NCBI GenBank assembly: GCA_964016885.1 | Contig: OZ024745.1 | Span: 35,464,001-35,528,000, forward strand | Direction: 5' to 3' | Length of the DNA: 64,000 nucleotides | DNA from: Eledone cirrhosa | Lineage: Eukaryota | Shown here: positions 878 to 63,201 of the stretch, one piece after another | Position numbering within the stretch: position 1 is the stretch's first letter | How the letters are laid out: each line of letters starts with the position of its first letter | Program-made: the position numbers and the translations under genes | Notes under the pieces: model-generated | Database searches by the model: none | What the model was told of the DNA's origin: nothing | What the model saw: only the letters and a program-made list of their open reading frames with translations

Positions 878-1642
878 ATGGCCGATCTACTAAATGAAAC
901 TATTGACCCCCCAGTAGCCTCTGTCTCACAGCATGAAACGCCACATCCTTTCTCTGGCCCAGCAGTCCAATCATCACCACTGCCAACATCTCTGCCTACT
1001 ACTACTACTACTACTACAACATTTTTGTCTACTGCTATGTCAAGGAATTTACCTTCTAATACCAGAACAAGAACTCTCCCTCCCACAGTCCACAAAGGTC
1101 GTCAAATCCTACCCAAACAATCATCCACACCTCTCACAACACCCACACCCACATACCCACCCACTCGAAACCGCATCATTTGCCGCTACTCTCTACGCTA
1201 TAGAATATGTACGGATAGTGGCTGCAAATTCACCCATTTACCTAGGACAAAACGATCTATCCCCACAAACAGCCACCACCATAATACATACTCTAATTTA
1301 ACACCAACACAACCACCAATAACTCAAACAAGGAATCCACAAATCTGCCGTTTTTCCCTGCGAGACAGATTGTGTTTAGACCGGGATTGTCCCTTTACCC
1401 ATCTCCCGGGGACCCGTCGGATAAATGAAAATAAAATTAAAAATAAAAGCAAAAACAAAAACCATAACCTACATAAAAATAACCACTACCACAGTCACCA
1501 ACAGTCTTCTAAACAGGAAACTTCTTCCTCTTTTTTAGCCATAATGAATCTGGCAAAAGAACTGGAAAAAAACATTCGAGCTATCACCCAGCACCACCCT
1601 CCACTATCACCCCACTGCACAAACTCCCATTGCTGCCATTAA
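878..1642 (+). CDS. LINE ORF1 (Pro/Thr/Ser-rich, two C-x8-C-x4-C-x3-H zinc fingers); frame also open upstream through the poly-Q
   Basis: [19 protein letters not shown] (1181-1237) and [19 protein letters not shown] (1346-1402). ATG at 878; the true start is uncertain. Confidence 0.8.
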
Positions 1643-4600
1643 CAAACAAACAAATTAACAACACACCAAAACAATTAAAACCATCCACTCTCGCCTCTAC
1701 ATTTTTGCTTAACGCCCAAGGCATCAGCCCTTCCACCAATACTCAAAAATGGAAGATCAAATTCCTGGAGGACTGGATTGATGTCCATCCAAACCACATC
1801 CCTTTCTTCGTCCTCACTGAAACCCATCTCAGTAACCTCCACTTGGAAGCCGAGGTGAAAGTGAAAAATTTCAAAGCCATCCGTGCTGATCGCGCTGGCA
1901 GAAGAAAGGGCGGAACTGCCATTTATGTCCATAATTCTTTCTCAACAGAGGCTATGAACATATTCACTAATGGATACTGTGAGGCAGTCACTGTATTCAG
2001 TCAAACCAACAACCTATTAGTAGTTGGGCTCTATAGGCCACCCCAAACGCCTGTACCATGCTTCAAGGAATGCCTCAACAGCATAAAGTGTTTCATCCAA
2101 GAGTGTCACCCTGACAACATCTTAATGATGGGGGACTTCAACCTCCCCGGAGTTGACTGGTTCACAAACACCCTGCCACCAGGTTCTTCTGCCTCAACCT
2201 CTGACAGGGAAGCTGTGGAATCACTTCTTGACTTCATGGATGATTTCTTCCTATCCCAACTAGTGCTCGAACCAACGAGGTGCCACAAAAACGTCCTAGA
2301 CTTAATTTTCAGCAATCACACTGACAATATCCACAATATTGCAGTGGAGAAAACTCTACTCTCTGATCATGACATGGTTCTCTGTGATCTGAGATTCCAC
2401 CGTCCAATATACAAACCCAATGTCATCTCTCCTGTCCATCCGTTTGACGCTATGGATTTCCACAATGCAAACTGGGAAGCGATCAGTCATGATCTTGCAC
2501 ATGTCGACTGGTCCTTCACGCACACTCATACACCCACTAACATCAAAAAGTCCTGGCAGACATTTGTGGACACTGTTACAAACATATGTGCTAAACACAC
2601 CCCATTAAGAACTATAAACAAATCTAAGAGCAGAATCCCTAGAAATAGAAAAACGCTCATCAGAAAAATTAAGAGAACGAACAAAAAATCAACAAGCTGA
2701 AATACTGTCAGCAGCAACACATCAACTTGACTGCCATTTCATCACTAGAGATTAAAAAACATAACCTCCAAAACAACATAATGTCCCTCATCAACAATCA
2801 GAGAAGAGCTGAAGAGGCCTGGGCCATTGAGAAGATCAAACTCAATCCCAAAGTGTTCTTTTCATTTGCAAAAAAACACAAAATCACTGGCTCTACTGTT
2901 GGCCCTCTAATTGATGAAAATGGCACTCTTCAAGACAATGCTAAAACCATGGGTGAGATACTGCAGAAACAATACTGCTCTGTTTTCAGCAATCCTGATA
3001 TGGCCGATCTGGGCTGTATCGGCGATGTTACTCCCCATTACACCTTATCGGACATAACGTTTGGCGCCCCTGATGTCTTGGCGGCAATAAAGGAAATCAA
3101 GCATAATTCAGCAGTAGGTCCCGATAGGTTCCCTGCTTGTGTCCTGAAGGCGTGTCAACACCAACTTGCTTCTCCTCTTGCCAATCTGTGGCGGAACTCA
3201 CTGGATGCTGGATATGTGCCAGAAAACCTTCTATCCCAGTCTGTTGTCCCAGTTTTCAAAAAGGGAAACAAATCCCATGCCGTGAATTACCGTCCAATCT
3301 CACTCACCTCTCATATCATTAAGGTATTTGAGCGAGTGGTGAGATCGCGAATGACCCACTTCCTTGAGAGTAACAATATGCTGAACTCCAACCAGCATGG
3401 ATTCCGTAATGGAAGGGATTGCCTGACGCAACTACTGCATCACTTTGATGATATTTTGAGAGCCTTGGGAGAGGGTTCCAACACTGATGTTATCTACCTT
3501 GATTTCAGCAAGGCCTTTGACAGGGTTGATCATAACATTCTACTGAGAAAGCTGTCCAATATTGGTGTCACTGGAAAGCTGCTGCAGTGGATCAAGAGCT
3601 TCCTGTCAAACAGAACCCAACATGTTGTAGTTGAGGGAGTCAAATCAAGCCCAGCCAAAGTCAGTAGTGGAGTCCCACAAGGCACTGTGTTGGGCCCACT
3701 TCTCTTCATCATCTATATTAATGACATCACTGACATCATCAAACACAGCAACATTAAAATTTTCGCTGATGATTCCAAGCTCCAAAAGGTCATCAATGGC
3801 GTGGATGACCGGATAAGCCTTCAGTCAGACCTACTGGCTGTTACCCAATGGGCAGAAAAGAACAACATGTTACTGAACGAGGACAAATTCGAACTGATCC
3901 ACTTTGGAAAAGAGGATGCTCTGAAACTCCCGTACTCCCTTCCCTCCGGGGAAACTCTCGTGGCATCTAACAACATCAGAGACTTGGGAGTAACCGTGGA
4001 CAGCAACATAAGCTGGACCACGCATATAAGCAGCAAAGTTGACATGGCCCGCAGAATGTGTTCCTGGATCCTCAGAACCTTCCAGTCGAGAGATTCCCGC
4101 ACCATTATCCTTCTCTTCTCTACTTTCGCCCGACCACACCTTGAATACTGTTGTCCACTGTGGTCTCCCCACACGAAACAAAGTATCATGAAACTTGAAG
4201 CTCCTCAAAGGGCAATCACGAAAAAGATAGATGGCATGTCAGACCTTGACTACTGGGGTCGATTGGAAAACCTGAAACTTTACTCACTCCAACGTCGCCG
4301 TGAGCGTTATATTATCTGCATGATGTGGAAAATGTTCCATCATCACTGCCCAAATGATGTTGGCATCGCCTTCAAGATACACCCAAGGCTTGGGCCCCGT
4401 GCTATCCGTCCCATTCAAAAATCTAAATCGCAACTCATAACAACAATACGGCACAATTATTTCACCTCAATCGGCCCTGCTCTCTTCAACATCACACCAG
4501 GACACGTCAAAACAGAACTGACCACACAAAATTCAAGAAGTCTTTGGACAAATTCCTCCAAGTAATCCCGGACAAACCACCCACACCCGGATATGTCTCC

Positions 4601-4732: not shown

Positions 4733-6699
<1,967 letters not shown>

Positions 6700-6702
<3 letters not shown>

Positions 6703-7169
6703 ATTAAGTTAAAAATGTACATCCACATATGTATACTGAAATACTAGTATGCATATGAATACACACACGTATACATATGTAGATGTACCAAGTTTTTCAC
6801 TGGTCACTTTACCGTGAGTGTCCAGCTATTCTGTATGTAAACACACAGACAAACCGGTTTTTAGAGTCATACTGGTTTTTGAGTAAACACCTTTCCTCTA
6901 TTCTCCAGAAAGCCAGACAAGGAATATTGAACTAGTTTCGTTGTTGTTACAACTCATCAGCAATATTTACCTATCTACCGGCCTTTCTGGAGAATCGTAA
7001 AAGCACATATCGTTATATGCTTTTTCTATGAAAATTAGTAGTGGGCAGACCAATTTGCATAGAGCGTGAGTACGTACCGGTTCAACGGAGACGATAAAAA
7101 CAAATAACGAAACGAAATTAAATTTCGTTTCGTTTGTAACTCTCTTTTGTATGACTGACGCTAAAAATT
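6700..7169 (-). mobile_element. ~470-bp non-coding hammerhead-bearing element (retrozyme/Penelope-associated), copy 1, runs into the gap
   Basis: Closely similar to 26945-27629; contains a type-I hammerhead and several hairpins; no real ORF. Confidence 0.85.
6923..6967 (-). ncRNA. Minimal type-I hammerhead ribozyme
   Basis: Minus strand AATATTG-CTGATGA-GTTGT AACA ACAAC-GAA-ACTAGT-T-CAATATT: 7-bp stem I, 5-bp stem II, palindromic stem III, GUU site. Confidence 0.9.
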
Positions 7170-7369
7170 NNNNNNNNNNNNNNNNNNNNNNNNNNNNNNN
7201 NNNNNNNNNNNNNNNNNNNNNNNNNNNNNNNNNNNNNNNNNNNNNNNNNNNNNNNNNNNNNNNNNNNNNNNNNNNNNNNNNNNNNNNNNNNNNNNNNNNN
7301 NNNNNNNNNNNNNNNNNNNNNNNNNNNNNNNNNNNNNNNNNNNNNNNNNNNNNNNNNNNNNNNNNNNNN
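7170..7369. other. Assembly gap (200 N)
   Basis: Run of N. Confidence 1.
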
Positions 7370-7697
7370 CAAAGGTCCCGTCTTCCACATCTAGAATAAG
7401 GAGCAGGTATTGCAATAGCCTGGGATTCAAGGGCCGTCAACTCTTCAACAGGCTGCCGAGGCATCTGAGAGACTTGCATGACGTGGAGGTGGATGTCTTT
7501 AAGAAACATCTCGACACCTTGTTATCCAGGATCCCGGATGAGCCCACAGCAAGACACGAGGGAAACCTAAGGGCAGCAGCAACAAACTCCCTCCTACACC
7601 AGTGGCCAACCTATACAGGCTGGAGATAAAATGTGTAGCAACAAGGGCGGTGCCCCAGCATGGCCTCAGCCGGATGGCTGAAACAGGTAAAAGAGAA
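7370..7697 (+). mobile_element. 3' end of a second LINE of the same clade (ORF2 C-terminus 7372-7629 plus 3' UTR)
   Basis: Frame 7372-7629 reads ...RYCNSLGFKGRQLFNRLP...[16 protein letters not shown]...NSLLHQ..., homologous to the C-terminus of the 661-4733 ORF2. It ends in a 3' stem-loop, then TA. Confidence 0.85.
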
Positions 7698-8081
7698 TAT
7701 ATTTATATATACATATATTTATATATACATATATTTATATATACATATATTTATATATATATATATATATACATATATTTATATATATATATATATATAC
7801 ATATATTTATATATATATATATATATATACATATATTTATATATATATATATATATACATATATTTATATATATATATATATATACATATATTTATATAT
7901 ATATATATATATACATATATTTATATATATATACATATATTTATATATATATATATATACATATATTTATATATATATATACATATATTTATATATATAT
8001 ATACATATATTTATGTATATATATATATACATATATTTAAATATATATATACATATATTTATATATATATATATATACGTA

Positions 8082-8131
<50 letters not shown>

Positions 8132-8277
8132 TATATATATATATATATACATATATTTATATATATATATATATATACATATATTTATATATATATATAT
8201 ATATATACATATATTTATATATATATATATATATTTATACATATATTTATATATATATATATATATATACATATATT

Positions 8278-8337
<60 letters not shown>

Positions 8338-8353
8338 TATATATATATATATT

Positions 8354-8384
<31 letters not shown>

Positions 8385-8415
8385 ATTTATATATATATAT
8401 ATATACATATATATT

Positions 8416-8491
<76 letters not shown>

Positions 8492-8528
8492 CATATATTT
8501 ATATATATATATTTATATATATATATAT

Positions 8529-8579
<51 letters not shown>

Positions 8580-8599
8580 CATATATTTATATATATATA

Positions 8600-8673
<74 letters not shown>

Positions 8674-8753
8674 CATATATTTATATATATATATATTTAT
8701 ATATATATATACATATATATGTATATATACATATATTTATATATACATATATT

Positions 8754-8784
<31 letters not shown>

Positions 8785-8855
8785 ATACGTATACATATAT
8801 TTATATATACATATATTTATATATATATATATATACATATATTTATATATACATA

Positions 8856-8890
<35 letters not shown>

Positions 8891-8915
8891 GTATACATAT
8901 ATTTATATATACATA

Positions 8916-8975
<60 letters not shown>

Positions 8976-9183
8976 CATATACTTATATATATACATATAT
9001 ATATATATACATATATTTATATATATATACATATACATATATTTATATATATATATATACATATATTTATATATATATATATATATTTATACATATATTT
9101 ATATATATATATATATATACATATATTTATATATATATATATATATACATATATTTATATATATATATATATATACATATATT

Positions 9184-9215
<32 letters not shown>

Positions 9216-9235
9216 TATATATATATACATATATT

Positions 9236-9330
<95 letters not shown>

Positions 9331-9361
9331 ATTTATATATATATATTTATATATATATATT

Positions 9362-9392
<31 letters not shown>

Positions 9393-9421
9393 ATTTATAT
9401 ATATATATATATACATATATA

Positions 9422-9470
<49 letters not shown>

Positions 9471-9499
9471 ATTTATATATATATATATATACATATATA

Positions 9500-9541
<42 letters not shown>

Positions 9542-9558
9542 TACATATATATATATAT

Positions 9559-9609
<51 letters not shown>

Positions 9610-9637
9610 CATATATTTATATATATATATTTATATA

Positions 9638-9699
<62 letters not shown>

Positions 9700-9829
9700 C
9701 ATATATTTATATATATATATATTTATATATATATATACATATATATGTATATATACATATATTTATATATACATATATTTATATATATATATATTTATAT
9801 ATATATATACATATATTTATATATACATA

Positions 9830-9868
<39 letters not shown>

Positions 9869-9935
9869 GTATACATATATTTATATATACATATATTTAT
9901 ATATATATATATATACATATATTTATATATACATA

Positions 9936-9972
<37 letters not shown>

Positions 9973-9997
9973 GTATACATATATTTATATATACATA

Positions 9998-10049
<52 letters not shown>

Positions 10050-10554
10050 CATATACTTATATATATACATATATATATATATACATATATTTATATATAT
10101 ATACATATACATATATTTATATATATATATATACATATATTTATATATATATATATATATATATACATATATACACATATATATATATATATACATATAT
10201 ACACATATATATATATATATACTTATATACACATATATATATATATATACATATATACACATATATATATATATATACACATATATATATATATATACAT
10301 ATATACACATATATATATATATATACATATATACACACATATACATATATATATACACACACATATACATATATATATACACATATACATATATATATAC
10401 ATATATATATATATATACATACACATATACATATATATATACATATATATATATATATACATATATTTATATATATATATATACATATATATATACATAT
10501 ATTTATATATATATATATACATATACATATATTTATATATATATATACATATAC

Positions 10555-10597
<43 letters not shown>

Positions 10598-10749
10598 TAT
10601 ATACACATATATACATACATTTATTTATATATATGTATATACATATATTTATATATATATATATACATACATATATTAATATATATATACATATATATTT
10701 ATATATATATATACACATATATATACATATATATATATACATATATATT

Positions 10750-10780
<31 letters not shown>

Positions 10781-10919
10781 ATATAAACATATATATTTAT
10801 ATTTATATATATATTTATATATATACATATATACATATATACATATATATATACATATATATTTATATATATACATATATACATATATATTTATATATAT
10901 AAATATATACATATATATT

Positions 10920-10953
<34 letters not shown>

Positions 10954-11009
10954 TATTTATATATATAAATATATACATATATATTTATATATATAAATAT
11001 ATACATATA

Positions 11010-11055
<46 letters not shown>

Positions 11056-11059
11056 TATT

Positions 11060-11135
<76 letters not shown>

Positions 11136-11136
11136 C

Positions 11137-11189
<53 letters not shown>

Positions 11190-11407
11190 TATTTATATAT
11201 ATATATATATATATATACATATATATTTATATATATATATATATATATACATATATATTTATATATATATATATACATATATATTTATATATATATATAT
11301 ACATATATATTTATATATATATATACATATATATTTATATATATATATACATATATATTTATATATATATATACATATATATTTATATATATATATACAT
11401 ATATATT

Positions 11408-11446
<39 letters not shown>

Positions 11447-11490
11447 ATATATACATATATATTTATATATATATATATATATTTATATAA
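7698..11490. repeat. Variant (TA)n array, ~3.8 kb (CATATATTT variants)
   Basis: Direct reading. Confidence 0.97.
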
Positions 11491-11714
11491 AATAAAGTTA
11501 AATAAAAGTTAAATGATTAAAATTTAGCTTCGTTTGTTACTGCTATATATATTTCAGTGATAGCCATCTTTGGCTGTGACCTCTTCAGGCAGTTTGAATT
11601 AGTATGGTATAGACAAGTACATATGTTGTTTAGGTGTATAATATTGTCAATACTCTGATATGCCCAGTTCCTTGTTTGGTTGTCAATTAACTGAGGAACT
11701 GGAGTCATATCTTC

Positions 11715-24503: not shown

Positions 24504-26944
<2,441 letters not shown>

Positions 26945-27629
26945 ACAATTAAGTTAAAAATGTACATCCACATATGTATACTGAAATACTAGTATGCATA
27001 TGAATACACACACGTGTACATATGTAGATGTACCGAGTTTTCACTGGTCACTTTACTGTGAGTGTCCAGCTATTCTGTATGTAAACACACAGACAAACCG
27101 GTTTTTAGAGTCATACTGGTTTTTGAGGAAACACCTTTCCTCTATTCTCCAGAAAGCCAGACAAGGAATATTGGACTAGTTTCGATGTTGTTACATCTCA
27201 TCAGCAATATTTACCTATCTTCCGGCCTCTCTAGAGAATCGTGAAAGCACATATCGCTATATGCTTTTTCCATGAAAATTAGTAGTGGGCAGACCAATTT
27301 GCATAGAGCGTGAGTACGTACCGGTTCAACGGAGACGATAAAAACAAATAATTCTGGAGAATAGAGGAAAGGTGTTTCCTCAAAAACCAGTATGACTCTA
27401 AAAACCGGTTTGTCTGTGTGTTTACATACAGAATAGCTGGACACTCACAGTAAAGTGACCAGTGAAAACTCGGTACATCTACATATGTACACGTGTGTGT
27501 ATTCATATGCATACTAGTATTTCAGTATACATATGTGGATGTACATTTTTAACTTAATTGTTTAAGCGTCAGTCATACAAAAGTGAGTTACAAACGAAAC
27601 GAAATTTAATTTCGTTTCGTTATTTGTTT
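26945..27629 (-). mobile_element. Hammerhead-bearing non-coding element, copy 2, with inverted 5' part (210-bp inverted arms 26945-27154 / 27352-27561)
   Basis: A-B-A'-C' arrangement relative to copy 1 (A-B-C); the arms appear identical; TA arrays on both sides. Confidence 0.9.
27167..27211 (-). ncRNA. Minimal type-I hammerhead ribozyme (GUC site)
   Basis: AATATTG-CTGATGA-GATGT AACA ACATC-GAA-ACTAGT-C-CAATATT; predicted cleavage between 27174 and 27173. Confidence 0.92.
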
Positions 27630-27632
27630 ATA

Positions 27633-27681
<49 letters not shown>

Positions 27682-27746
27682 ATATTTATATATATTTATA
27701 TTTATATATATATATTTATATATATATATATATTTATATATATTTA

Positions 27747-27795
<49 letters not shown>

Positions 27796-27858
27796 ATATT
27801 TATATATATTTATATATATATTTATATATATATATATTTGTATATATTTATATATATT

Positions 27859-27889
<31 letters not shown>

Positions 27890-27902
27890 ATATGTATATA
27901 TT

Positions 27903-27940
<38 letters not shown>

Positions 27941-27974
27941 TATATATATATATATATTTATATATATATAGATT

Positions 27975-28023
<49 letters not shown>

Positions 28024-28026
28024 ATT

Positions 28027-28057
<31 letters not shown>

Positions 28058-28060
28058 ATT

Positions 28061-28094
<34 letters not shown>

Positions 28095-28102
28095 TATATA
28101 TG

Positions 28103-28149
<47 letters not shown>

Positions 28150-28188
28150 GTATATATATATTTATATATATATATGTATATATATATT

Positions 28189-28245
<57 letters not shown>

Positions 28246-28528
28246 GTATATATATATTTATATATATATATATGTATATATATTTATATATATATATGTA
28301 TATATATATTTATATATATATATGTATATATATATTTATATATATATATATGTATATATATTTATATATATATATATGTATATATATTTATATATATATA
28401 TGTATATATATATTTATATATATGTATATATATATATATGTATATATATATGTATATATATATTTATATATATATATGTATATATATATATATGTATATA
28501 TATATTTATATATATGTATATATATATT

Positions 28529-28583
<55 letters not shown>

Positions 28584-28726
28584 TTATATATATATATGTA
28601 TATATATATTTATATATATGTATATATATATTTATATATATGTATATATATATTTATATATATATATATGTATATATATATTTATATATATGTATATATA
28701 TATTTATATATATGTATATATATATT

Positions 28727-28758
<32 letters not shown>

Positions 28759-29530
28759 TATACATATATTTATATATGTATATATATATTTATATATGTA
28801 TATATATATATTTATATATATATATATGTATATATATATTTATATATATATATATATGTATATATATATTTATATATATATTTATATATGTATATAAATA
28901 TTTATATATATATATGTATATATATATTTATATATATATATGTATATATATATTTATATATATATATGTATATATATATTTATATATATATATGTATATA
29001 TATATTTATATATATATGTATATATATATTTATATATATATGTATATACATATTTATATATATATGTATATATATATTTATATATATATGTATATATATA
29101 TATATATATATACATATATTTATATATGTATATATATATTTATATATGTATATATATATTTATATATATATATATGTATATATATATTTATATATGTTTA
29201 TATATATTTATATATGTATATATATATTTATATATATATATGTATATATACATTTATATATGTATATATATATTCATATATATATATTTATACATATATT
29301 TATATATGTATATATATATTTATATATATATATGTTTATATATATTCATATATGTATATATATATTTATATACATATGTATATATATATTTATATATATA
29401 TGTATATATATATTTACTTATATATGTATATATATATTTATATATATATGTATATATATATTTATATATATATGCATATATACATTTATATATATATATG
29501 TATATATATATTCATATATATATATGTATG

Positions 29531-29563
<33 letters not shown>

Positions 29564-29575
29564 ATATATATATTC

Positions 29576-29606
<31 letters not shown>

Positions 29607-29667
29607 TATATTCATATATATATATATGTATATATATATATATTCATATATATATATATGTATTTAA

Positions 29668-29707
<40 letters not shown>

Positions 29708-29711
29708 ATTT

Positions 29712-29743
<32 letters not shown>

Positions 29744-29916
29744 ATATATATATATATTTACATGTATATATATATATATTTACATGTATATATATATATA
29801 TTTACATGTATATATATATATATTTACATGTATATATATATATATTTACATGTATATATATATATATATATTTACATGTATATATATATATATTTACATG
29901 TATATATATATATATT

Positions 29917-29990
<74 letters not shown>

Positions 29991-30004
29991 CATGTATATA
30001 TATA
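27630..30004. repeat. Variant (TA)n array, ~2.4 kb (TTT, GT, TTTACATGT zones)
   Basis: Direct reading. Confidence 0.97.
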
Positions 30005-30103
30005 TCCCGGGTTCATTCGAATAAAATAGTTCCAGTCGTGTTGTAGCTATTTCTATATTAAGTAAAAATAAATTAATAAATAAATAAATAAATATATAAA
30101 TAA

Positions 30104-30575
<472 letters not shown>

Positions 30576-42517: not shown

Positions 42518-47840
<5,323 letters not shown>

Positions 47841-61186: not shown

Positions 61187-63201
61187 AGAGAGAAAATCCT
61201 CAACGCTCACATGATGATGTGGACTGACATCCTAAAGCCAAGCAGACGCACTGCCAACAACTTCCAGGCGTCTAACAATGGAATACCACCCTTGTATGGG
61301 CTCCGCAAAGACCACAAGACAGTCGACGACCCGACAACAGGACTACCAACAAGACCCGTATGCGGAGCTAATATAGCTAGTAACTACAGGATCTCCTACT
61401 TCCTCTCAATGGTTATACGCCCCATAATGAAGATGTCCCCAGATGTATGTGACAGTACAGAGGACCTCCTCAGCAGAATCAGTGAGTGCAACAAAAACAG
61501 GAACCTATCCAACTGCATAATAGGCAGCATGGATGTGGTGTCACTGTACCCATCCATTAACATTGATTTTGCTGTGAAAAGATGTGTGGAGATGATCATT
61601 GAGAGTGAGGTGGAGTTCTGCGACGTCGACACAGACGAACTGGGCCTCCTACTTAGACTTACTTACGACACTGACTACCTAGACAGCCATGACCTTAGAC
61701 GTTTCTGCCCTAGTAGACCTATAAGAGGTAGACCCCACCACTATAACCCCAATGGCAAAAAAGACTCCCATGGGAAGGTGGATTGGGTGGACCAAAGCCA
61801 TACGGACCCCCCAAAACAATGATCAGGTAAGAAAAATGGTCGCACATGCAATAGGGGCTAGTATCAAAACTACCCTAAAGGGCCACATATTTAAGTTCAA
61901 CGAGAAGATCTACACCCAAAATGAGGGAGCAGCCATTGGCGTCAGCATAGCTGGTGATGTTGCCAACCTTTTCATGGTATGGTGGGAAAGGAGACTTAAA
62001 GATCTCCTTAATGAGAGCTCCATAGACCTCATCATGTACTCTCGTTATGTAGATGATATCAATATAGTTATAAGAACATCCCCGCTAGAGAGCACTAACA
62101 AGTTTGATTTAGAACGTAGCTCGATGGAAAGCATCCAGCAGATAGCTAATTCCATACACCAGAGTATAACTGTAACTATCGACTTCCCTTCCAAACACCC
62201 TAACAATAGACTACCTGTATTAGACACAGAACTCTGGATTAACACTATAGACGAGAGAGCCCAAATTCTCCACTCACACTATGCTAAACCCATGGCCTCC
62301 AAATACCTGATACTAAAAAACTCAGCAATGTCCAATAGTGCTAAGTTTAATATTCTGATCGCAGATTTGGTACGAGTGATGAAGAATGTGTCCCGCATGT
62401 GCGACCCAACAGAAATGGAAAGACACATCCAACACTTCATCAACCGCATGCAGTTCTCTGGCTACAACCACAGAGACAGAGTGTCAGAGTATACGAAGGA
62501 GCCATGGAGAAGTATAAGACCCTCATAGAACTGGACATTAAAGGAATTTGCCCATTATAGAGGAGCAAATCATGGAATAGCTTAGATAGGGCTAGACATA
62601 AGATAGGGAAAGCCACCTCATGGTACGACAACCAGAGATACCAGAGTGTCATTTTGTGGACGCTACCCTTGGAAGGAAATTAGCTAACCAGTGTAGAAAG
62701 GCCCTAAGAAAGACCCACTTAAAAATTAAGGTGGTAGAAAAGCCAGGAACCACCATAAAATCCCCGATCAGCAAAACCTACCCTTTTAAGAAAACCCACT
62801 GTACCAATAGGAAATGTATCATATGTAAGGTAAACCCCTGGATAAACTGTAAAACTAGAAACGTAGTCTATAGCATAAGATGTACAGAGGGTACTTGCAG
62901 AAACATGACAACAACATACATAGGTGAGACAGCTCGTAGCATAGGTGAAAGGATAGACCAACACTGGGAACTAAAAGGACGAAAAAACGGGTCAGTACTA
63001 TACGAACATGCTAGACAACAACATGACGGTAACATAGACAACATAGAAATTATAATAATATCTAAACATAGAAATGACCTAGCAGATAGGCAAATCAGAG
63101 AGGCCAGTGAAATAGAAATTAGAAGACCAAGACTAAATAGAAAGAATGAATGGAATAACAACAACACCCAAACAAACAACACTGACCTAAGAGAAGTATA
63201 A
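61187..63201 (+). pseudogene. Penelope-like RT + GIY-YIG ORF with 3 frameshifts (~61735, ~62482, ~62655) and a nonsense codon (62558)
   Basis: [43 protein letters not shown], Cys-rich linker, VVYSIRC...YIGETARSIGERIDQH, E...I...P.LN. Confidence 0.9.

What the first reader, a model, noticed from the sequence alone, without database searches (positions are those of the whole stretch)
6923..6967. Compensatory base change between two hammerhead copies in the same window
Seen: stem II is GUUGU/ACAAC here and GAUGU/ACAUC at 27167-27211, so a U-A pair is swapped to A-U. The core (CUGAUGA, GAAA), the 7-bp stem I and the ACUAGU stem III are invariant, and the cleavage triplet varies only within NUH (GUU vs GUC). 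Inference: selection maintains ribozyme activity across at least two source subfamilies.
Basis: partly seen in the sequence, partly recalled or inferred. Interest (0 to 1): 0.75.

Follow-up and report, generated by a model that had tools for sequence, protein, structure and literature searches.

The report
Compensated hammerhead stem in young retrozyme
A 466-base repeat carrying a predicted self-cutting RNA is copied about 8,000 times in this animal genome, and its two main versions differ by one swapped base pair that arose once and was likely kept because the RNA must still fold and cut to spread, which is ordinary for this known kind of jumping element.

Summary
Both sites are type I hammerheads (Rfam HH9, E 2e-8, below cut-off) inside a 466-nt non-coding tandem repeat, a non-LTR retrozyme inserted in (TA)n. 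Genome-wide, 7,815 of 7,831 exact matches are U-A (5,212) or A-U (2,603); 16 are anything else. On a 62-row tree the swap is a single event, on a branch carrying only those two changes. So it is real and non-random, but one event and not a covariation signal by itself. Better support: a sister family (11,213 matches) re-pairs stems I and II around the same core; lineage-level hammerhead changes keep the fold (3 of 3) while private ones mostly break it (35 of 48). Selection is likely. One-step hairpin template switching is a live rival; a wobble test was null. 58 of 59 fully classifiable two-armed insertions end once at the unit end and once 72 nt beyond, a Penelope footprint. Cleavage and expression are untested. 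This scan has reported such two-armed retrozymes elsewhere in this genome. Verdict: new member of a known kind, moderate interest.

The parts
6700..7165 (-). Retrozyme unit, copy 1 (466 nt; unit positions q1-466). Its outer end (q466) abuts (TA)n at 6699; its other side runs into a 200-N gap at 7170-7369, so any second arm is hidden.
6923..6967 (-). Type I hammerhead, U-A/GUU version (q199-243). Swapped pair at 6952/6941; predicted cut between 6930 and 6929.
6907..6978 (-). Extended stem I with a UA bulge beyond the 7-bp stem, as in canonical type I hammerheads; predicted to contact the AACA loop II, which the sister family shares
   Evidence: Rfam alignment; contact inferred
7094..7165 (-). 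q1-72: the 72-nt 'tail' segment between the two fixed insertion ends, containing a near-perfect hairpin (7106-7134)
26945..27351 (-). Copy 2, left arm (q59-466, 5'-truncated), outer end q466 in (TA)n
27167..27211 (-). Type I hammerhead, A-U/GUC version. Swapped pair at 27196/27185, N17 at 27174.
27352..27633 (+). Copy 2, inverted right arm (q256-466 at 27352-27561, then the q1-72 tail at 27562-27633) ending in (TA)n
4735..11489 (.). (TA)n microsatellite array hosting copy 1
24526..30285 (.). (TA)n microsatellite array hosting copy 2

Best explanation
The two sites are copies of a young, about 8,000-copy, 466-nt non-LTR retrozyme whose stem II swap arose once and was likely kept by selection on a predicted self-cleaving fold, and whose insertions were likely made by a Penelope-type reverse transcriptase/endonuclease. 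Model: (1, shown) tandem 466-nt units, each with a type I hammerhead, sit in (TA)n, mostly as two opposed, 5'-truncated arms of one haplotype. (2, inferred from known retrozymes) multimeric transcripts cut themselves at q236/237, with two hammerheads pairing through ACUAGU, and monomers are circularised. (3, inferred) a Penelope-like protein nicks both strands of (TA)n and starts reverse transcription at two fixed internal sites 72 nt apart, one per target end, running round the template to give multimers. (4, inferred) only variants that still fold found new lineages, so one-sided stem mutants stay private while the compensated swap expanded; U-A now makes up two thirds of copies, and A-U is probably the older state.
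For: Counts: 5,212 U-A, 2,603 A-U, 16 other of 7,831. That is 8 odd copies per site, against 12.5 per site at the other six stem II positions (7,906 total). Tree of 62 rows: 1 change, branch 0.0046 x 452 columns, about 2 substitutions; nearest U-A and A-U loci differ at the pair plus one site. Distance control: q225/q236, also 11 nt apart, shows all four haplotypes (63/9/31/3). Of 114 site pairs within 20 nt, 6 show two haplotypes only, and 4 of those are base-pair partners: 214/225, 272/281, 346/361, 347/360 (the last two paired by inspection). Hammerhead variants shared by 3 or more loci keep the fold in 3 of 3 events (swap, GUU/GUC, U-A to U-G); non-lineage changes break it in 35 of 48 (Fisher p 0.027). 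Compensated pairs: 3 of 38 lineage stem variants versus 0 of 216 private ones (p 0.003). A sister family (11,213 matches) and another relative re-pair the stems: 9 of 15 pairs change on both sides, 94.5% of cells paired, slid controls 29-51% (11 distinct rows). Circular monomer folds at -149 kcal/mol, z -9 (60 shuffles). Ends: 58 of 59 two-armed insertions with both ends at a standard site have one of each. Arms differ 0.7% versus 3.8% between loci. RT + GIY-YIG ORFs of 600-1,100 aa are present in the genome. Literature: PMC7229834, PMC11167929, PMC8557442, PMC4209133.
Against: The swap is n=1. The wobble test is null once limited to transitions: lineage 8 of 16 keep pairing, private 46 of 99; 10 of 20 lineage variants in predicted stems (3 or more loci) break a pair. 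A terminal stem I break (q199 A>U) is shared by 2 loci. One unit has a symmetric 1-nt insertion on both arms of stem II while both one-sided insertions have 0 matches, which points to coupled mutation without selection. The monomer MFE is an inactive fold, and my active-dimer model (-15.2) is 1.8 kcal/mol above the dimer MFE (-17.0). Published tests are mixed: 1 of 9 predicted Xenopus retrozyme dimers cleaved in vitro (bioRxiv 10.64898/2026.07.22.740005), and hammerhead cleavage was not needed for PLE insertion in vitro (PMC11167929). No autonomous PLE sharing sequence with the unit was found among 48 GIY-YIG loci examined. The 11 rows come from only three families, so they are not independent.
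Confidence: 0.7

Rival explanations
1. One-step mutation, little or no selection on this pair: during copying of the hairpin an error on one arm is templated onto the other by a short intramolecular template switch, so no mismatched intermediate lineage ever existed; the lineage then expanded by drift.
For: The branch holds only the two changes. A-U to U-A has no G-U stepping stone (established pairing rules). All four compensated pairs lie in short local hairpins, 9-15 nt apart. One array unit has a symmetric two-arm insertion, with 0 matches for either one-sided form among about 5,200 U-A copies. The mechanism is described for RNA genes (PMC8794818, abstract and opening read). Wobble test null.
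Against: 0 of 216 private stem substitutions are compensated. The two-arm insertion is one case in an indel-rich, probably noisy array. The only two-sided change at pair q216/223 in the genome is not complementary. It does not explain an invariant core across families whose stems have diverged. It is not exclusive with selection.
Confidence: 0.2
2. Selection acts on RNA structure for something other than cleavage, such as binding by the PLE protein, circle stability or escape from RNA surveillance; the ribozyme is weak or inactive.
For: Three of four compensated pairs lie outside the hammerhead. The whole unit is highly structured. The monomer misfolds. 8 of 9 Xenopus elements did not cleave (bioRxiv 2026.07.22.740005). 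PAc insertion is independent of hammerhead activity (PMC11167929).
Against: The unpaired catalytic core and NUH are kept across families, and N17 toggles only between U and C (1,710 GUC matches; A in the sister family). Three haplotype switches within arrays all bracket the cut site.
Confidence: 0.07
3. Satellite DNA amplified by DNA recombination only; the swap is a neutral double hit frozen in a founder copy.
For: Some long arrays show block duplications (L071, L074). Up to 31 tandem hammerhead matches in a row.
Against: Dispersed loci on many contigs, 5' truncation, fixed 3' ends with strict asymmetry (58 of 59) and (TA)n targeting. My rough chance that a two-substitution branch hits the two partners of one pair complementarily is about 4e-4, with about 7 such branches in the tree (arithmetic).
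Confidence: 0.03

Closest known systems
Metazoan non-LTR retrozymes (Cervera and de la Pena 2020, PMC7229834, parts 2-4 of 6 read; Li, Clavereau and Pollet, bioRxiv 10.64898/2026.07.22.740005, parts 1-3 of 5 read)
   Same: Non-coding tandem units with one type I hammerhead each, thousands of copies, low GC, highly self-paired predicted circle, short palindromic helix III suited to dimer cleavage, co-occurrence with PLEs, two sister families in one genome (as in axolotl, including a U.U pair at the base of stem II in the second family).
   Different: The unit (466 nt) is slightly above the 150-450 bp range given in 2020 but within the 51-972 bp of the 2026 preprint. Strict two-armed insertions with two fixed ends and (TA)n targeting were not described for retrozymes in the parts I read. 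Expression, cleavage and circles are not shown here.
EN+ Penelope-like elements: pLTR, tail and inverted copies (Craig et al. 2021, PMC8557442, passages; Frangieh et al. 2024, PMC11167929, parts 1-2 of 4; Cervera and de la Pena 2014, PMC4209133, passages)
   Same: [quoted passage not shown]
   Different: No ORF. The tail is 72 nt (63 in the sister family) rather than 30-40. Multimers reach tens of units. The hammerhead is canonical with an extended stem I, not minimal. No sequence-sharing autonomous partner was found.
Rfam Hammerhead_HH9 (RF02275, clan CL00010)
   Same: Full-length match of core, stems I-III and the stem I bulge (E 2.3e-8).
   Different: 38.6 bits, below the 52-bit gathering score; helix III is much shorter.

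Membership tests
Type I hammerhead ribozyme | Core CUGANGA, GAAA, NUH with three helices, open at stem I | tested here: met
Type I hammerhead ribozyme | Rfam family score at gathering threshold | tested here: not met
   0 hits; HH9 38.6 of 52 bits. This lowers membership of HH9, not of the hammerhead class.
Type I hammerhead ribozyme | Covariation of stems | tested here: met
   9 of 15 pairs change on both sides across three families; within the family, one event in stem II
Type I hammerhead ribozyme | Self-cleavage at NUH | not testable with these tools
   needs an in vitro assay
Non-LTR retrozyme | Tandem non-coding units of a few hundred bp, each with a type I hammerhead, at least two consecutive | tested here: met
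Non-LTR retrozyme | No LTR structure and no ORF | tested here: met
   Unit layout; no ORF of 300 aa or more in two arrays. PBS/PPT were not searched.
Non-LTR retrozyme | Stable self-paired circular fold | tested here: met
   -149 kcal/mol, z -9; prediction only
Non-LTR retrozyme | Expressed as linear and circular monomer RNA | tested here: inconclusive
   No RNA holder listed; contig joints cannot tell a circle from tandem DNA
Non-autonomous PLE derivative | Partial tandem/inverted structure with a tail at one end; microsatellite target | tested here: met
   58 of 59; also in the sister family
Non-autonomous PLE derivative | EN+ PLEs present in the genome | tested here: met
   RT + C-terminal GIY-YIG ORFs
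Non-autonomous PLE derivative | Sequence similarity to the pLTR of an autonomous PLE | tested here: inconclusive
   None in 48 loci drawn from the 150 scored of 10,597 GIY-YIG candidates

The most novel reading that the evidence does not exclude
This family is a genomic record of a ribozyme RNA evolving while a Penelope RT dimer copies it: one RNA template is primed from both ends of a (TA)n break at two fixed sites, one each; the RT changes template at the hammerhead cut site; and short hairpin template switches create compensated base pairs in a single step. If so, textbook 'compensatory' changes in such RNAs can come from the copying enzyme, and the cut site is used in vivo.
Probability: 0.2. 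Interest if true: 0.65.

Novelty: new member of a known kind. Interest (0 to 1): 0.35.

Why it matters
The swap by itself is ordinary: hammerhead families in animal genomes are known to be full of compensatory changes. Its value is as a test case. With about 8,000 near-identical copies one can separate lineage-founding from private mutations and ask what a retrozyme must keep in order to spread. The strict one-tail-per-insertion rule ties retrozymes to the two-start-site Penelope mechanism, which the retrozyme papers I read propose but do not show. The two natural variants, plus their mismatch intermediates, make a ready set for testing whether self-cleavage matters for mobility, which is an open question.

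Tried and rejected
Rfam at gathering score: 0 hits. The repeat finder was swamped by (TA)n. Hairpin inversion as the source of the swap: rejected, because it would reverse the AACA loop and leave the pair unchanged; such flips do appear at the q32-60 palindrome in 3 units. Wobble enrichment over the whole RNA: it looked significant at first (9 of 12 versus 49 of 176) but vanished when limited to transitions, so it was dropped. Template switching at the cut site: 3 mosaic arrays (L010 switch within q190-271, L018 q226-375, L083 q237-344) all include q236/237, but about 40 further loci gave no new clear case, so this is a post hoc hint only. Search for an autonomous partner: none found. Sequencing runs: no RNA holder listed, which says nothing about expression. 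Contigs of seven coded organisms match at mostly 95-99%; both variants appear in X1 and X6 and only U-A is shown in X4, X5, X7, X8, X10. Several are at low depth, and I cannot tell genomic copies, RNA or carry-over apart. Raw Hi-C run X23 laid 0 reads, which is no test. One search's pattern was one base too long on each side; it found the two-arm insertion by accident. Look-up of earlier findings by sequence: nothing. R-scape was not available. Supplements of the cited papers were not read, and the bioRxiv ones are closed; they may hold related families or end structures.

Full report
1. Observation. Both coordinates hold a type I hammerhead on the minus strand: 7-bp stem I, CUGAUGA, 5-bp stem II with AACA loop, GAAA, ACUAGU, NUH. 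The pair at window 6952/6941 is U-A; the pair at 27196/27185 is A-U. The triplets are GUU and GUC. Nothing else differs in the 45 nt; the two copies are 96.6% identical over about 410 nt. Rfam has no hit at gathering score, but HH9 matches full length at 38.6 bits, E 2.3e-8, and shows a stem I extension with a UA bulge. As a monomer, helix III is 2 bp plus UA, and the predicted fold pairs the core with it. ACUAGU is a palindrome, the layout that Cervera and de la Pena 2014 link to cleavage as dimers (passages).

2. What it sits in. Each hammerhead is part of a 466-nt unit inside a (TA)n array. In the own genome (G000, 3.0 Gb) the 40 best of 536 candidate regions gave 151 matches, nearly all 94-100% identical, as head-to-tail multimers with 5' truncation and inversions. 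The circular monomer folds at -149 kcal/mol, z -9 against 60 shuffles. I examined 107 loci. They are not a random sample: 20 A-U and 20 U-A arrays in order along C1, top hits to copy 1, GUC-selected loci, a few others and the two window copies; overlapping duplicates were dropped. Of these, 58 are two-armed with one outer end at q458-466 and the other at q66-75; 1 has q466 at both ends; 8 are two-armed with a non-standard end; 31 look one-armed; 9 are cut by the fetched edge. The two arms differ by 0.7% (43 loci) against 3.8% between loci, so both arms come from one template lineage. This matches PLE anatomy: an inverted 5'-truncated copy, a tail often at one end only, (TA)n bias (passages), and two internal RT start sites that define the tail, with both strands cut and extended. 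The genome has RT + GIY-YIG ORFs, but none of 48 loci shared sequence with the unit. The element meets the sequence criteria for a non-LTR retrozyme. Four paper searches bore on this; I found no description of strict two-ended retrozyme insertions in what I read, and supplements were not seen. Earlier notes of this scan report the same architecture for other families in this genome; I reached it before that look-up, and they are not independent support.

3. The swap across the genome. Exact patterns give 7,831 matches with both positions free, 5,212 U-A and 2,603 A-U, so 16 others. Freeing all eight inner stem II positions gives 7,906. Mismatches at the focal pair (8 per site) are therefore no more common than background (12.5 per site), and no other large compensated lineage exists in stem II. 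At locus level it is 66 U-A, 40 A-U and 0 mixed of 106; at unit level 202, 178 and 1 gapped. These counts are inherited, not independent. A tree of 62 rows from the first 64 loci needs one change, on a branch of about two substitutions (its support comes from those same sites, the bootstrap had not settled, and the family shows homoplasy or recombination: 165 of 378 site pairs have four gametes). A-U lineages lie at the midpoint root and the sister family has A-U at this pair, so A-U to U-A is the likelier direction, weakly.

4. Is it selection? For: q225/q236 at the same 11-nt distance shows all four haplotypes, and GUC occurs on both backgrounds (1,710 matches). Four of the six two-haplotype pairs among 114 close pairs are base-pair partners; the other two share a long branch with 272/281. 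Hammerhead variants in 3 or more loci keep the fold in 3 of 3 events, while 35 of 48 non-lineage changes break it (p 0.027). Compensated pairs make up 3 of 38 lineage stem variants and 0 of 216 private ones (p 0.003). Across this family, the sister family and one more relative, 9 of 15 pairs change on both sides around an unchanged core (11 distinct rows, three families). Against: the wobble signal disappears when only transitions are compared (8 of 16 versus 46 of 99); half of lineage stem variants break a predicted pair; a terminal stem I break is shared by 2 loci. One unit carries a symmetric insertion on both arms while neither one-sided insertion exists. That suggests coupled mutation by template switching, a described source of compensatory changes (abstract and opening), but it is one case in a noisy array, and the single two-sided change at q216/223 is not complementary. 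Published activity is mixed: coral, mussel and axolotl retrozymes cleave, the axolotl ones best as dimers, but only 1 of 9 Xenopus dimers did, and PAc insertion did not need cleavage.

5. Mechanism. Shown: anatomy, copy numbers, single origin of the swap, end rule, shared haplotype of arms. Inferred: transcription, dimer-assisted cleavage at q236/237, circularisation, PLE-driven priming at two sites with rolling copying, and purifying selection on founders. A hint only: three mosaic arrays switch haplotype in intervals that include the cut site, 3 of 107 loci, with no new case in the last 40 or so. No RNA run was listed, so expression is untested.

6. Verdict. It is a new member of a known kind (non-LTR retrozyme, likely PLE-mobilised).

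Noticed in passing
L136:7874-9901; G000-wide; tail fragment at window 45520-45582: Sister retrozyme family of about 470-510 nt per unit, 11,213 exact core matches, homologous along the unit, with U.U at the base of stem II, a GUA triplet, an internal (TA)n and two-armed insertions with a 63-nt tail.
   Followed up: partly
window 11539-11593 (-), in a repeat starting near 11481: A second hammerhead-like motif with a long stem II and an AUAUAUAU palindromic stem III, in a different repeat next to the (TA)n array; copies in L087, L129, L142.
   Followed up: partly
L144:1974-2020 (G000:C15:14536780): A single array unit with a 1-nt insertion on both arms of stem II; neither one-sided insertion occurs in the genome. 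The array is indel-rich.
   Followed up: yes
L010, L018, L083: Arrays that switch haplotype within an arm or between arms, each in an interval that includes the predicted cut site.
   Followed up: yes
L071, L074: Long arrays with repeated blocks of private mutations (period of about six units in L071), from later unequal exchange or a multimeric template.
   Followed up: no
L129:4301-4343, L130, L125, L135, L139: PLE with a CxxxxCxxC linker and C-terminal GIY-YIG (Neptune-like by the description in PMC8557442), carrying a minimal hammerhead with an AGUACU palindrome after the ORF. Other hammerhead types occur in L155 and L171.
   Followed up: partly
window 61226-63198 (+): Broken PLE-like ORF pieces: weak RVT_1 (E 6e-4) and 25-29% identity to genomic PLE RTs.
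   Followed up: partly
window 1513-4562 (+) and 7370-7690 (+): LINE with AP endonuclease and RT in two frames; a LINE-like 3' end follows the N gap (identification from recall of such C-termini).
   Followed up: partly
L077: One insertion lies in a (GAT)n/(CAT)n repeat rather than (TA)n.
   Followed up: no
runs X4-X20: Sixteen other coded organisms hold parts of the unit, six of them laid here at mostly 95-99% identity and often low depth; close kin, transfer or carry-over cannot be told apart.
   Followed up: partly
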